DNA of 64,000 nucleotides from a virus. Taxonomy: Duplodnaviria > Caudoviricetes. The stretch covers positions 1-64,000 of IMG/VR virus record IMGVR_UViG_3300042294_002093, one strand, 5' to 3'. The translations under genes and the position numbers were made by a program. The notes under the pieces were generated by a model that saw only the letters and a program-made list of their open reading frames with translations, was not told the origin of the DNA and ran no database searches. This document shows positions 18,794-18,920 of this stretch, piece by piece; position 1 is the stretch's first letter; each line of letters begins with the position of its first letter.

Positions 18794-18908
18794 TGAGCAG
18801 TTTATAGACTACTGCTCAGGTCTATTAGCCACGAAGATTCGACTCCTGCTAACTTTCCTGTCAAAGGAACATCCGTTGTAAAACTTTTTAAAGTCTCATA
18901 GCGGAATA
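18794..18908 (-). ncRNA. candidate ~115 nt structured RNA ending in pseudoknot copy 6
   Basis: own TATAAT at 18915-18920; three hairpins then TAGAC-CTGAGCAGTA-GTCTA-taaac-TGCTCA. Confidence 0.55.
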
Positions 18909-18920
18909 GTATATATTATA

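What the first reader, a model, noticed from the sequence alone, without database searches (positions are those of the whole stretch)
18794..18920. Probable stand-alone ~115 nt structured ncRNA downstream of hsp20
Seen on the minus strand: TATAAT immediately follows the hsp20 stop. It is followed by hairpins AUUCCG...CGGAU (inner GAGACUU/AAGUUUU), UUCCU-uugac-AGGAA and UUAGC...GCUAA, then pseudoknot copy 6. I found no credible ATG-started ORF, and the next gene has its own promoter. A UUAGC/GCUAA hairpin also precedes copy 2 at 3368-3383. Inference: a discrete phage small RNA whose 3' module is reused elsewhere in the genome.
Basis: partly seen in the sequence, partly recalled or inferred. Interest (0 to 1): 0.7.

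Follow-up and report, generated by a model that had tools for sequence, protein, structure and literature searches.

The report
Pseudoknot-capped phage small RNA gene
Behind the small heat-shock gene of this lake phage of actinobacteria lies a separately promoted gene for a folded RNA of about 115 bases that ends in a small RNA knot; related phages keep the fold through compensating mutations, no catalogued RNA family matches it, and its job is still unknown.

Summary
On the minus strand, 18791-18920 holds a -10 box, three hairpins and an H-type pseudoknot.

It is a real non-coding RNA family. A pattern scan of viral contigs found at least 117 stretches, giving 76 distinct sequences. 13 of 37 base pairs show changes on both sides, and 97.5% of cells are paired against 34-51% in slid controls. 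Many G-U pairs fix the strand. A 20-codon frame is absent from 18 of 76 sequences.

Rfam 15 has no match. The genome carries one copy of the RNA and six copies of the pseudoknot. One pseudoknot lies 4 nt before a tRNA gene.

The host is probably actinobacterial: the genome has WhiB, its terminase resembles those of Streptomyces phages, and it uses leaderless-type promoters.

In related contigs the RNA sits on either side of hsp20. The same slot also holds at least four other RNA cassettes.

Expression could not be shown, because the public RNA runs were available only as contigs.

My reading is a stable, stand-alone phage sRNA with a 5' stem and a 3' pseudoknot cap that acts in trans. The mode, probably protein binding, is a guess.

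This scan found the same family before on other genomes (e1-5977235, e1-6000307).

The parts
18915..18923 (-). TAGTATAAT: the hsp20 stop codon (18923-18921) fused to the -10 box TATAAT (18920-18915) of the RNA gene
   Evidence: In alignment A1 (76 sequences, five or more different upstream contexts), positions 1, 2, 4, 5 and 6 of the hexamer never vary; only position 3 varies. In this genome 9 of 36 extended -10 boxes have a start codon 5-7 nt downstream, against about 0.35 expected at random positions. Boxes of this kind therefore act as promoters that start RNA about 7 nt downstream.
18907..18909 (-). Inferred transcription start, 6-8 nt after the -10 box and 1-3 nt before the first paired base of hairpin 1
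   Evidence: Inferred from the spacing of leaderless genes. The other RNA cassette types in related contigs also begin their 5' stem 5-8 nt after the box. Not measured.
18872..18905 (-). Hairpin 1: an invariant outer stem UCCG/CGGA, an internal loop, and a variable inner stem
   Evidence: The outer helix has 4 pairs; 3 never vary and the fourth departs in one sequence. In the inner helix 6 of 8 pairs change on both sides. Some relatives have a wholly different inner stem, of the GUCCC/GGGAU type.
18855..18869 (-). Hairpin 2: a 5-bp stem with a loop that holds a nearly invariant UGA
   Evidence: 4 of 5 pairs change on both sides (UUCCU/AGGAA, CUCCC/GGGAG, CUCUU/AAGAG and others); loop T62 and G63 are kept in at least 90% of sequences and A64 never varies.
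18824..18853 (-). Hairpin 3: outer stem GUUAGC/GCUAAU, an internal loop of A opposite GUG, an inner stem GGAG/CUUC, and the loop UCGAAU
   Evidence: In the outer helix 2 of 6 pairs change on both sides (UA to CG). In the inner helix 1 of 4 pairs does, and its length and loop differ between relatives by 3- and 4-nt indels. The 3' half was fixed by my search pattern, so its invariance says nothing.
18795..18823 (-). H-type pseudoknot: S1 AGAC/GUCU, L1 CU, S2 GAGCAG/CUGCUC, L2 UA, L3 AUAAA
   Evidence: Both stems covary between copies. S2 occurs as GAGCA/UGCUC, GGGUA/UACCC, GGGCA/UGCCU, GGACA/UGUCC and AAGCA/UGCUU. In 1.44 Mb of related loci there are 209 descriptor hits, against 16 in reversed sequence.
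18791..18794 (-). AUUU tail behind the pseudoknot; probable 3' end region
   Evidence: the base after the pseudoknot is A in 93 of 118 distinct contexts, and a U-rich run follows. The count is dominated by this RNA family, so these are not independent events.
18778..18786 (-). Extended -10 box TGCTATAAT of the next gene (ORF 18163-18771, PHROG of unknown function)
   Evidence: A box follows the pseudoknot in 51 of 76 relatives, in 47 at the same distance.
18921..19337 (-). hsp20 (138 aa), the usual neighbour of the RNA
   Evidence: Pfam HSP20 at 6e-18 and PHROG 432. In 117 loci found through the RNA alone, hsp20 lies within 700 nt upstream in 66 and downstream in 28, always on the same strand.
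1085..1110 (+). Pseudoknot copy 1 (UUC/GAA; AUUC/GAAU with the fourth pair), just after a stop codon
3368..3410 (+). UUAGCC/GGCUAA hairpin followed by pseudoknot copy 2 (GUC/GAC)
   Evidence: It is a weak match to model R1 (14 bits).
4160..4185 (+). Pseudoknot copy 3 (CUC/GAG; ACUC/GAGU with the fourth pair), followed by a TAGTATAAT box at 4220
4796..4821 (+). Pseudoknot copy 4, with a covarying stem 2 (GGCCA/UGGCC) and a U-run behind it
6030..6059 (+). Pseudoknot copy 5 (CAC/GUG; CCAC/GUGG with the fourth pair), ending 4 nt before tRNA-Asp (6064-6138)

Best explanation
This is an independent gene for a non-coding RNA of about 115 nt in a roughly 111-kb tailed phage of freshwater actinobacteria.

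How I think it is made: host RNA polymerase starts at a -10-only promoter fused to the hsp20 stop codon. The RNA begins almost directly with a stem, folds into three hairpins, and ends in a compact H-type pseudoknot.

Role of the pseudoknot: it is a general transcript-end module of this phage. Five other copies sit after genes or just before a tRNA gene. Its most likely role is to define and shield the 3' end against 3'-to-5' exonucleases. It may also act as a weak terminator together with the U-rich tail.

Role of the body: with a 5'-terminal stem and a knotted 3' end, the RNA is built to accumulate during infection. Its conserved bases lie in junctions, an internal loop and one short loop, not in a long single-stranded seed. 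I therefore infer that it acts in trans by binding a protein, as a decoy, sponge or cofactor, and not by antisense pairing.

Evolution: the whole unit (promoter, body, pseudoknot, next promoter) behaves as a cassette that is shuffled by recombination at the repeated promoter sequences.

Shown: the fold, its conservation, the strand, the non-coding nature, the reuse of the module and the mobility. Inferred: the transcription start and end, the stability and the trans action. Unknown: the partner.
For: **Fold and conservation**
- 79 distinct sequences and 37 pairs, with 97.5% of cells paired against 34-51% when partners are slid by 1-3 columns.
- 13 pairs change on both sides. 0 of 500 shuffles reach the observed values on four of five measures; on further pair types 16 of 500 do.

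**Strand**
- The commonest pair is G-U or U-G at four positions (66, 58, 76 and 56 of 79 sequences). G-U is a frequent minority at others.
- On the other strand these would be C-A mismatches.

**Boundaries**
- Conservation starts at TAGTATAAT and ends at CUGCUC-A, whatever the flanks.

**Promoter**
- The hexamer varies only at position 3.
- Boxes of this kind sit 5-7 nt before start codons in 9 of 36 cases, against about 0.35 expected.

**Not coding**
- There is no frame at all in 18 of 76 sequences.
- Relatives differ by 3- and 4-nt indels inside the frame.
- Amino-acid changes at codons 2-4 are the compensatory partners of bases that lie upstream of the start codon.

**Not a leader**
- The downstream genes differ between contigs.
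- 51 of 76 sequences have their own -10 box behind the pseudoknot.

**Module reuse**
- Six pseudoknots in the genome.
- 209 descriptor hits against 16 in the control in related loci.
- A tRNA gene starts 4-7 nt behind the pseudoknot in 8 of 118 distinct contexts, and in none at 11-100 nt. Transcription must therefore pass the pseudoknot there, which favours an end-cap role over an obligatory stop.

**Mobility**
- The RNA is upstream of hsp20 in 28 loci and downstream in 66.
- DNA-run contigs join 18926 to 19497 and 19402 to 18788, at the shared TGCTATAAT.

**Copy number and databases**
- One copy per genome.
- No Rfam match at gathering scores, nor at E up to 10 apart from a microRNA model on the opposite strand at 14.8 bits against a gathering score of 78, which I take as chance.

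**Host**
- WhiB at 45.2 bits.
- Terminase 54% identical to those of Streptomyces phages; 127 of the 353 matching records are Streptomyces phages and 105 are Gordonia phages.
Against: - No transcript was seen. The two RNA libraries that hold relatives were contigs only, and the listed pieces stop inside hsp20 at 18942 and 18977. 216 further pieces were not shown, so this neither supports nor refutes expression.
- There is no terminator between hsp20 and the RNA. The same sequence could also be made as the 3' UTR of hsp20 mRNA.
- The pseudoknot and half of hairpin 3 were fixed by my search pattern, so their invariance within the family is uninformative.
- The alignment used for the pair counts was fitted to the model's structure, which leans towards that structure.
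- A 20-codon frame is intact in 44 of 76 sequences and shows a slight excess of third-position variation: entropy 2.65, 1.88 and 4.10 for positions 1, 2 and 3, with 5, 3 and 6 variable columns.
- Protein binding is inferred only from the lack of a long conserved single strand. No partner is known.
- In some relatives a -10 box is followed directly by the pseudoknot and then a ribosome-binding site. The pseudoknot therefore cannot be a strong terminator, and it may serve 5' ends as well.
Confidence: 0.55

Rival explanations
1. It is a cis-acting regulatory cassette with no function in trans. Promoter, structured spacer, pseudoknot and next promoter would work only to insulate neighbouring transcription units and to offer homology for recombination. 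This would be the counterpart of the promoter-terminator cassettes (PeSLs) of T4-type phages.
For: - The pseudoknot and the following TGCTAYAAT box lie at a fixed distance in 47 of 76 sequences.
- Upstream of hsp20, an ordinary terminator hairpin holds the same place before an identical box.
- The cassette changes sides of hsp20, and DNA contigs join at the shared box.
- Other cassette types fill the same slot.
- PeSLs are described as composite terminator/promoter sequences that mediate shuffling (PMC4122927, abstract read).
Against: - An insulator needs only the pseudoknot or a hairpin.
- It does not explain about 85 nt of body whose three helices are kept by compensatory change, or invariant junction and loop bases, over 76 distinct sequences.
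Confidence: 0.13
2. The RNA is a ligand of the phage's own Hsp20. The sHSP would bind structured RNA, as E. coli IbpA binds the leaders of its own, ibpB and rpoH mRNAs. The neighbouring small RNA would then titrate or store Hsp20, or relieve its self-repression.
For: - The RNA lies next to hsp20, on one side or the other, in 94 of 105 loci that could be judged and that were found through the RNA alone.
- Other structured RNA cassettes occupy the same position.
- The phage Hsp20 is 37% identical to both IbpA and IbpB. It keeps the IbpA-type residues at Y34, R93 and R97 (Y36, R94, R98), where IbpB has F, Q and L.
- R93 is reported as essential for mRNA binding but not for chaperone activity (PMC10474464, abstract and passages read).
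- The hsp20 leader here folds so that the ribosome-binding site is paired.
- Earlier notes of this scan report pseudoknotted RNAs in front of hsp20 in unrelated lake phages. I did not check them.
Against: - The adjacency may be plain synteny within one phage group.
- At least 5 of the 11 loci without a close hsp20 show none on the DNA held.
- The residue equivalent to K98 is serine.
- RNA binding has been shown only for proteobacterial IbpA.
- RNAduplex found no special pairing between the RNA and the hsp20 start region, which ranked 29th of 85. That tests pairing, not protein binding.
Confidence: 0.12
3. It is a base-pairing regulatory sRNA that targets a host or phage mRNA.
For: - It has the stand-alone sRNA gene layout.
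- The UGA in the loop of hairpin 2 and the junction bases are conserved.
Against: - There is no conserved unpaired stretch longer than about 5 nt.
- An RNAduplex scan against 85 start regions in the window gave no outlier that I could interpret. The best score was -37.4 against a mean of -21.9 and sd 6.0, with very long, loose duplexes.
- The host genome is unknown, so host targets could not be searched.
Confidence: 0.08
4. It is a structured 5' leader, a riboswitch or thermosensor, of the downstream gene.
For: - In 25 of 76 sequences no -10 box follows the pseudoknot.
- In some relatives a ribosome-binding site follows within about 20 nt.
Against: - The downstream genes differ: an ORF of unknown function, hsp20, another RNA gene, and others.
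- 51 of 76 sequences have a promoter in between.
- No part of the fold overlaps a ribosome-binding site.
- No Rfam riboswitch matches.
Confidence: 0.05
5. It encodes a 20-aa micropeptide, in a frame that runs from the loop of hairpin 2 to the TAA inside the pseudoknot.
For: - The frame is intact in 44 of 76 sequences.
- There is a slight excess of third-position variation.
Against: - There is no frame in 18 of 76 sequences, and other lengths in 14.
- The start codon is TTG in this window and in 15 of the 47 intact frames.
- No purine-rich ribosome-binding site lies upstream (read).
- Relatives differ by 3- and 4-nt indels inside the frame.
- Codons 2-4 change in step with non-coding bases on the other arm of hairpin 2.
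Confidence: 0.04

Closest known systems
PeSL promoter-terminator cassettes of T4-type phages (Comeau, Arbiol, Krisch; PMC4122927 abstract read; PMC2839356 seen in the search listing only)
   Same: Both are small composite units of a transcript-end structure and a promoter. Both are repeated in variable genome regions and serve as crossover points that swap neighbouring modules. Here that means the pseudoknot plus TGCTAYAAT at a fixed distance, changes of position, and joints at the box.
   Different: This phage is not T4-like. The end structure is a pseudoknot, not a stem-loop. The cassette carries a structured RNA body of about 85 nt under its own selection. No sequence comparison with PeSLs was made.
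Stable small RNAs of the T4 tRNA region (species 1 and 2, rnaC/rnaD).
   Same: Both are phage-encoded, stand-alone, structured RNAs of about 100-140 nt with unknown function, and both are linked to tRNA gene regions. Here the tRNA cluster at 17122-17348 lies 1.4 kb away, and the same 3' module abuts a tRNA gene.
   Different: No sequence was available to compare. The T4 RNAs are processed from tRNA precursors, whereas this one has its own promoter.
sRNA genes embedded at the 3' end of a coding gene with their own promoter (MicL and DapZ type).
   Same: The promoter overlaps the end of the upstream ORF, and the RNA occupies what would otherwise be the 3' UTR.
   Different: Those RNAs depend on Hfq, act by base pairing and end in ordinary terminators. 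Actinobacteria lack Hfq (own knowledge). No seed region is visible here.
Compact H-type pseudoknots with an A-rich third loop: preQ1-I riboswitch aptamers and luteovirus frameshift knots. Recalled.
   Same: Same topology and size (28-31 nt), with an A-rich loop 3 that ends in AAAC.
   Different: No Rfam PreQ1 match even at E up to 10. Loop 2, where preQ1-I holds its ligand-pairing C, varies here (A, U, C, UA, GUA). The element sits after stop codons and at RNA 3' ends, not over a ribosome-binding site or a slippery site.
Exoribonuclease-resistant viral RNA elements (xrRNA, coremin motif).
   Same: A small knotted fold at the boundary of an RNA that could stall an exonuclease.
   Different: Those block a 5'-to-3' enzyme of eukaryotes.
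mRNA-leader binding by the small heat-shock protein IbpA of E. coli (PMC10474464, abstract and passages read; PMC10410725, listing only)
   Same: An IbpA-like sHSP that keeps the R93 and R97 equivalents, encoded beside structured RNAs.
   Different: IbpA binds its own 5' UTR. Binding of a separate sRNA by any sHSP has not been described, as far as my searches went.

Membership tests
Any Rfam 15 family | A match to a curated covariance model at its gathering score | tested here: not met
   Over the whole window only 6 tRNAs reach gathering scores. For 18700-19000 at E up to 10, the only hit is a microRNA model at 14.8 bits against a gathering score of 78. Five related loci with the other cassette types gave only tRNAs and sub-threshold hits.
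H-type RNA pseudoknot (structural class) | Two stems in which the loop of the first pairs with sequence 3' of it, both supported by covariation | tested here: met
   Stem 1 occurs in 13 pair types and stem 2 in 17 among 118 distinct contexts. A few are probably chance hits, since the reversed control gave 16 against 209. The six genome copies carry different stem 1 sequences.
preQ1-I riboswitch | A match to the family model, a conserved ligand-pairing C in loop 2, and a position over the ribosome-binding site or terminator of a queuosine gene (features recalled) | tested here: not met
   No match. Loop 2 is variable. The neighbouring genes are unrelated to queuosine.
tRNA or tRNA-like structure | Detection by tRNA models, a 7-nt T-loop on a 5-bp stem, and an acceptor end with discriminator and CCA | tested here: not met
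   ARAGORN and the Rfam tRNA model find nothing here. The loop of hairpin 3 is 6 nt (UCGAAU) and is replaced by 4-7-nt loops in relatives. N-C-C-A/U follows the pseudoknot in only 12 of 118 contexts. What speaks for a likeness: A follows the knot in 93 of 118 contexts, and the 4-7-nt spacing to downstream tRNAs is near the 1-3 nt between tRNA genes of the cluster. Likeness in action is not excluded.
PeSL cassette of T4-type phages | A terminator stem-loop plus early promoter, repeated in hyperplastic regions of a T4-type genome, and found at indel boundaries | tested here: inconclusive
   The layout and the recombination behaviour are analogous. The genome is not T4-type and the structure is a pseudoknot. 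I conclude that it works like a PeSL but is not a member.
ROSE-type RNA thermometer (for the neighbouring hsp20 leader, not for the RNA itself) | A match to a ROSE model, and a hairpin that pairs the ribosome-binding site | tested here: inconclusive
   ROSE_2 scores 13.9 bits against a gathering score of 65, E 1.6. The fold pairs GGGGAAU with AUUCGCUU (z -1.48).
Protein-coding gene | A conserved open frame with a start signal and codon periodicity | tested here: not met
   18 of 76 sequences have no frame, relatives differ by frame-shifting indels, and periodicity is weak (5, 3 and 6 variable columns).

The most novel reading that the evidence does not exclude
The shared 3' domain of these RNAs is a hairpin with a T-loop-like YCG..A loop followed by the pseudoknot. 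In this reading it mimics the acceptor/T-arm 'top half' of a tRNA, as the pseudoknotted tRNA-like ends of some plant viruses do.

Phages of many bacterial phyla would then use it as punctuation. It would recruit tRNA-processing enzymes (RNase P, RNase Z, the CCA-adding enzyme) to cut and cap transcripts after genes and before tRNAs.

The promoter-driven small RNAs that end in it, including this one, would be tRNA-like decoys or carriers whose variable 5' bodies are swapped in an arms race with the host.
Probability: 0.08. Interest if true: 0.85.

Novelty: new variant of a known kind. Interest (0 to 1): 0.6.

Why it matters
Phage-encoded small RNAs are known mainly from a few model phages of proteobacteria. 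Almost nothing is known for phages of the abundant freshwater actinobacteria, whose hosts lack Hfq.

This is a well-supported RNA family:
- It occurs in at least 117 viral contigs.
- It has a clear promoter, a clear fold, and an unusual knotted 3' end that the same phage reuses as a general transcript-end signal.
- It sits in a slot where related phages carry at least four other structured RNA cassettes.

That pattern of interchangeable, separately promoted RNAs is what one expects of genes under fast diversifying selection, such as those used against host defences.

If the pseudoknot proves to be an end cap, it would be a compact, portable RNA-stabilising part. If the RNA binds the neighbouring IbpA-like Hsp20, or tRNA enzymes, it would open a new type of phage-host RNA biology.

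The finding is not new to this scan. Earlier agents reported the same family on other genomes, also without a function.

Tried and rejected
1. **Similar DNA in cultured phages.** blastn of 801 nt (hsp20 plus the RNA) against 50,697 phage records found no match.

2. **Expression.** One search for runs gave two RNA libraries holding 0.10 and 0.08 of the sampled words, and four runs of unrecorded kind holding 0.42-0.45.
   - Laying four of them gave contigs only.
   - The listed RNA-library pieces cover hsp20 (18977-19172, 19134-19358, 18942-19257) and parts of the downstream ORF. None covers 18791-18920.
   - 216 pieces were not listed, and contigs cannot show ends or strand. This is no evidence either way.

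3. **Target search.** RNAduplex against 85 start regions in the window gave no interpretable outlier, and hsp20 ranked 29th.

4. **Pseudoknot in a cultured relative.** The degenerate pattern has 0 matches in Streptomyces phage Coruscant, 133,697 nt.

   - By my own arithmetic about 700 chance matches are expected in 596 Gb, so most are noise.
   - 29 have a 4-bp stem 1 in the right place, against about 6 expected by my rough estimate. They come from many phyla.
   - I did not check whether they lie in prophages.

6. **CCA-adding enzyme.** The Pfam PolyA_pol family is not found in the phage genome.

7. **Encoded CCA behind the pseudoknot.** Only 12 of 118 contexts have N-C-C-A/U. Most of this phage's own tRNA genes lack an encoded CCA too, so the test is weak.

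8. **Literature.** Four searches listed no paper that describes this RNA or the pseudoknot. In PMC10690425, a catalogue of more than ten thousand candidate phage RNAs, the main text has no 'hsp20'. Its supplements are closed and may list the motif.

9. **T4-like cyanophage.** This was my first guess, from hsp20, 2OG oxygenases and tRNAs. I dropped it.
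Full report
**1. What is there**

All features below read on the minus strand.
- The hsp20 ORF (18921-19337; Pfam HSP20 6e-18) ends in TAG, which runs straight into TATAAT (18920-18915).
- Seven to eight bases later a stem begins. Three hairpins follow: 18905-18872, 18869-18855 and 18853-18824.
- Then comes a 29-nt H-type pseudoknot (18823-18795): AGAC-CU-GAGCAG-UA-GUCU-AUAAA-CUGCUC.
- It is followed by AUUU and, at 18786-18778, the perfect extended -10 box TGCTATAAT of the next ORF.
The opposite strand folds as well (z -2.83), so the single sequence proves little.
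- The only ORF is a TTG-started frame of 20 codons.

**2. The genome**

The window is the first 64 kb of a 111,082-bp IMG/VR virus record. It has 35% G+C, and CheckV estimates it as 99% complete. My first guess, a T4-like cyanophage, was wrong.
- PHROGs show a DnaE-type polymerase, DnaB helicase, primase, SSB, a Cas4-like exonuclease, RuvC, a large terminase, minor tail proteins, an endolysin, a polynucleotide kinase/phosphatase and many 2OG-Fe(II) oxygenases.
- A WhiB gene lies at 22804-22977 (45.2 bits, above the Pfam cut-off; among 14 control genomes only Corynebacterium matched).
- The terminase is 54% identical to those of 128-134-kb Streptomyces phages. Of 353 matching phage records, 127 are Streptomyces phages and 105 are Gordonia phages.
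- 9 of 36 extended -10 boxes in the genome have the start codon of an ORF of at least 50 aa just 5-7 nt downstream. About 0.35 would be expected at random positions. This leaderless arrangement is typical of actinobacteria (own knowledge).

These points make an actinobacterial host likely. They also calibrate the promoter: RNA starts about 7 nt after such a box, which here is 18907-18909, at the foot of hairpin 1.

**3. Relatives**

- With the Hsp20 protein, the search for related loci returned 80 viral contigs out of 586 confirmed.
- blastn, MAFFT and a covariance model showed the whole element in 18 of these 80 loci, at more than 100 bits.
- Together they give 76 distinct sequences (alignment A1).
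- Conservation begins at TAGTATAAT and ends just behind the pseudoknot. The flanks fall into several unrelated classes.
- Within the hexamer only position 3 varies.

**4. Covariation**

I built model R1 from A1 with hairpins 1-3 and stem 2 of the pseudoknot. I realigned 85 matches with it (79 distinct, including 3 of a variant type) and counted pairs with the pseudoknot added.
- 97.5% of 2832 cells are standard pairs, against 34-51% when the 3' partners are slid by 1-3 columns.
- 13 of 37 pairs change on both sides, against 5.5 ± 1.2 in shuffles. 0 of 500 shuffles reach the observed value.
- The covariation score is 0.139 against 0.093.
- By helix:
  - Hairpin 1, inner stem: 6 of 8 pairs compensatory.
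  - Hairpin 2: 4 of 5.
  - Hairpin 3, outer stem: 2 of 6.
  - Hairpin 3, inner stem: 1 of 4.
  - The outer stem of hairpin 1 and both pseudoknot stems do not vary within the family.

Three caveats apply. The alignment was fitted to the model. My search pattern fixed the 3' half of hairpin 3 and part of the pseudoknot. The sequences are related to one another.

The commonest pair is G-U or U-G at four positions, in 56 to 76 of the 79 sequences. That assigns the RNA to the hsp20 strand.

**5. Not coding, not a leader**

A frame of 20 codons runs from the loop of hairpin 2 to the TAA inside the pseudoknot.
- It is intact in 44 of 76 sequences, absent in 18, and of other lengths in 14.
- Relatives differ by 3- and 4-nt indels inside it.
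- The start codon is TTG in this window and in 15 of the 47 intact frames.
- No ribosome-binding site precedes it.
- The amino-acid changes at codons 2-4 mirror changes on the other, non-coding arm of hairpin 2.
- Variation by codon position is 5, 3 and 6 variable columns, with entropy 2.65, 1.88 and 4.10. This is a weak third-position excess that I report but do not find persuasive.

Downstream genes differ between contigs. 51 of 76 sequences carry a further -10 box behind the pseudoknot, 47 of them at one fixed distance. A role as leader of one particular gene is therefore unlikely.

**6. The pseudoknot module**

A descriptor was used: a 3-bp stem 1, the loop CU, a 5-bp stem 2, and a loop 3 ending in AAC.
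- In the genome it finds 7 hits, against 1 in the reversed genome and 0-3 in each of ten shuffles.
- Six of them share the stem 2 consensus: 1085, 3385, 4160, 4796 and 6030 on the plus strand, and 18822 on the minus strand.
- Their stem 1 sequences all differ and all pair.
- In 1.44 Mb of related loci there are 209 hits against 16 in reversed sequence, and 118 distinct contexts.
- Stem 2 covaries there too: GAGCA/UGCUC, GGGUA/UACCC, GGGCA/UGCCU, GGACA/UGUCC and AAGCA/UGCUU.
- The next base is A in 93 of 118 contexts, and a U-rich run follows. This count is dominated by one family.
- A tRNA gene starts 4-7 nt behind the knot in 8 of 118 contexts, and in none at 11-100 nt. In this window tRNA-Asp starts 4 nt behind copy 5.

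Transcription must therefore pass the knot in those cases. RNase P cleavage of the tRNA would leave the upstream RNA ending in the knot. I take this as the best available hint that the knot is a 3'-end cap and not an obligatory terminator.

In some relatives a -10 box is followed directly by the knot and then a ribosome-binding site. The knot can therefore also lie near a 5' end.

The knot's pattern occurs in bacterial genome contigs of many phyla. Most of the 121 matches are at chance level, but 29 have a correctly placed 4-bp stem 1.

**7. A hot spot of RNA cassettes**

Behind hsp20, the 80 related loci carry one of several arrangements.
- Type A: this RNA.
- Type B: the same outer stem AUUCCG/CGGAU with a different interior, a simple hairpin and the knot. 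It scores about 40 bits with R1.
- Type C: two hairpins and the knot, about 85 nt.
- Type D: another body with the knot.
- Type E: about 85 nt closed by an 11-bp stem, without the knot. 4 of its pairs are compensatory in 12 sequences. In six loci it follows type A, with its own box.
- The knot alone.
- A box plus the knot in front of a lysin-like gene.

None of these types matches Rfam. All have a -10 box at the hsp20 stop codon and a stem that starts 5-8 nt behind it. Types A to D share a 3' domain: a hairpin with a YCG..A loop, followed by the knot.

**8. Mobility**

In the 117 loci found through the RNA alone:
- hsp20 lies within 700 nt upstream on the same strand in 66;
- downstream in 28;
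- not within 700 nt in 11;
- 12 have flanks too short to judge.

Contigs of two public DNA-type runs join 18926 to 19497 and 19402 to 18788. That gives the order 93-aa gene, RNA, hsp20, with the crossover in the shared TGCTATAAT. This is the behaviour described for the promoter-terminator cassettes (PeSLs) of T4-type phages (PMC4122927, abstract). The sequences and the phage type differ.

**9. Expression**

One run search and one laying were allowed. Two RNA libraries, labelled freshwater and lake water, hold close relatives. They were served only as assembled contigs, and the listed pieces cover hsp20 but not the RNA. Nothing can be concluded from this.

**10. Function**

Shown:
- a conserved fold;
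- the strand;
- a promoter-like box with the right pattern of conservation;
- the lack of a conserved frame;
- one copy per genome;
- reuse of the 3' module;
- cassette mobility.

Inferred:
- a discrete RNA of about 115 nt whose 5' stem and knotted 3' end make it stable;
- trans action through a protein. The conserved unpaired bases are few and scattered (a UGA in the loop of hairpin 2, the junctions, and A opposite GUG in the internal loop of hairpin 3), while the apical stems vary freely.

I examined two more specific ideas.

(a) Binding to the neighbouring Hsp20.
- The protein is 37% identical to E. coli IbpA and to IbpB.
- It keeps the IbpA-type Y34, R93 and R97 (Y36, R94, R98), but not K98.
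- R93 is reported as essential for binding of the ibpA leader (PMC10474464).
- This makes the idea testable, but the adjacency may be mere synteny.

(b) A tRNA top-half mimic, made of the T-arm-like hairpin plus a knot acting as acceptor stem.
- The topology, the A after the knot and the spacing to tRNA genes fit.
- tRNA models, loop length and encoded CCA do not.

Neither idea is more than a lead.

**11. Known or new**

- There is no Rfam family.
- No paper was found in four searches.
- The supplements of the large phage-RNA catalogue PMC10690425 could not be read.
- Within this scan the same family was already reported on other genomes, also with unknown function: e1-5977235 and e1-6000307, with related notes e1-5976615 and e1-5953038.

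I rate it a new variant of a known kind, namely phage-encoded stand-alone small RNAs. What sets it apart is the pseudoknot cap and its membership in a set of interchangeable cassettes.

Noticed in passing
window 19338-19386 (-): The hsp20 leader folds into two hairpins. The second pairs the ribosome-binding site GGGGAAU with AUUCGCUU, so it is a candidate RNA thermometer. The Rfam ROSE_2 match is far below threshold (13.9 against 65 bits), and the fold's z-score is only -1.48.
   Followed up: partly
L043:3418-3540, L059:1199-1318, L074:3545-3670 and nine other loci; not in this genome: A second, unrelated small RNA family ('type E', about 85 nt). It has a TAYAAT box and an 11-bp closing stem CCCCACACAGG/CCUGUGUGGGG in which 4 pairs are compensatory. 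It lacks the pseudoknot and is followed by another -10 box. It sits behind hsp20 or behind the type A RNA. No Rfam match.
   Followed up: partly
L040, L052, L032, L037, L055, L070, L042, L004, L009 (type C); L017, L019 (type D); L058, L062, L065, L078 (type B); about 3417-3540 in most: Other promoter-driven structured RNAs that end in the same pseudoknot fill the slot behind hsp20 in related contigs. Types A to D share a hairpin with a YCG..A loop just before the knot.
   Followed up: partly
window 6030-6138 (+): A pseudoknot copy ends 4 nt before tRNA-Asp. In related loci 8 of 118 distinct pseudoknot contexts have a tRNA gene 4-7 nt downstream, mostly tRNA-Asn after the spacer ACCU or GCCU.
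   Followed up: partly
window 4777-6012 (+): The longest ORF (DUF932 protein) overlaps the pseudoknot copy at 4796-4821 and its U-run. The true start codon is probably further downstream.
   Followed up: no
whole genome, e.g. 106076, 105116, 97478, 96810 (-): Many genes are arranged as leaderless: TGnTAYAAT followed after 5-7 nt by the start codon. This holds for 9 of 36 boxes, against about 0.35 expected.
   Followed up: yes
window 22804-22977 (-): A WhiB-family gene, which marks an actinobacterial host. The large terminase (39223-40998) is 54% identical to those of Streptomyces phages such as Coruscant.
   Followed up: yes
window 12157-12765, 13892-14446 (+); 19828-20403, 20400-21008, 29006-29665, 29646-30239 (-): At least six paralogous 2OG-Fe(II) oxygenase genes. 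Two tandem pairs lie next to the hsp20 region.
   Followed up: no
window 16259-16708 (+) and 17122-17348 (+): A polynucleotide kinase/phosphatase (HAD_PNKP) gene lies just before a cluster of three tRNA genes, 1.4 kb from the RNA. This could be an RNA-repair context.
   Followed up: no
window 18921-19337 (-), residues 36, 94, 98: The phage Hsp20 keeps the residues that distinguish the mRNA-binding IbpA of E. coli from IbpB (Y34, R93 and R97 equivalents). The K98 equivalent is serine.
   Followed up: partly
window 18926/19497 and 19402/18788: Contigs of two public runs carry the alternative gene order 93-aa gene, RNA, hsp20, with the crossover in the repeated TGCTATAAT box.
   Followed up: partly
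L200-L318 (genome contigs): The pseudoknot pattern with a correctly placed 4-bp stem 1 occurs in 29 of 121 matches, in contigs of very different phyla: Saccharibacteria, Lachnospiraceae, Calothrix, Anaerolineae and others. I did not check whether these lie in prophages.
   Followed up: partly
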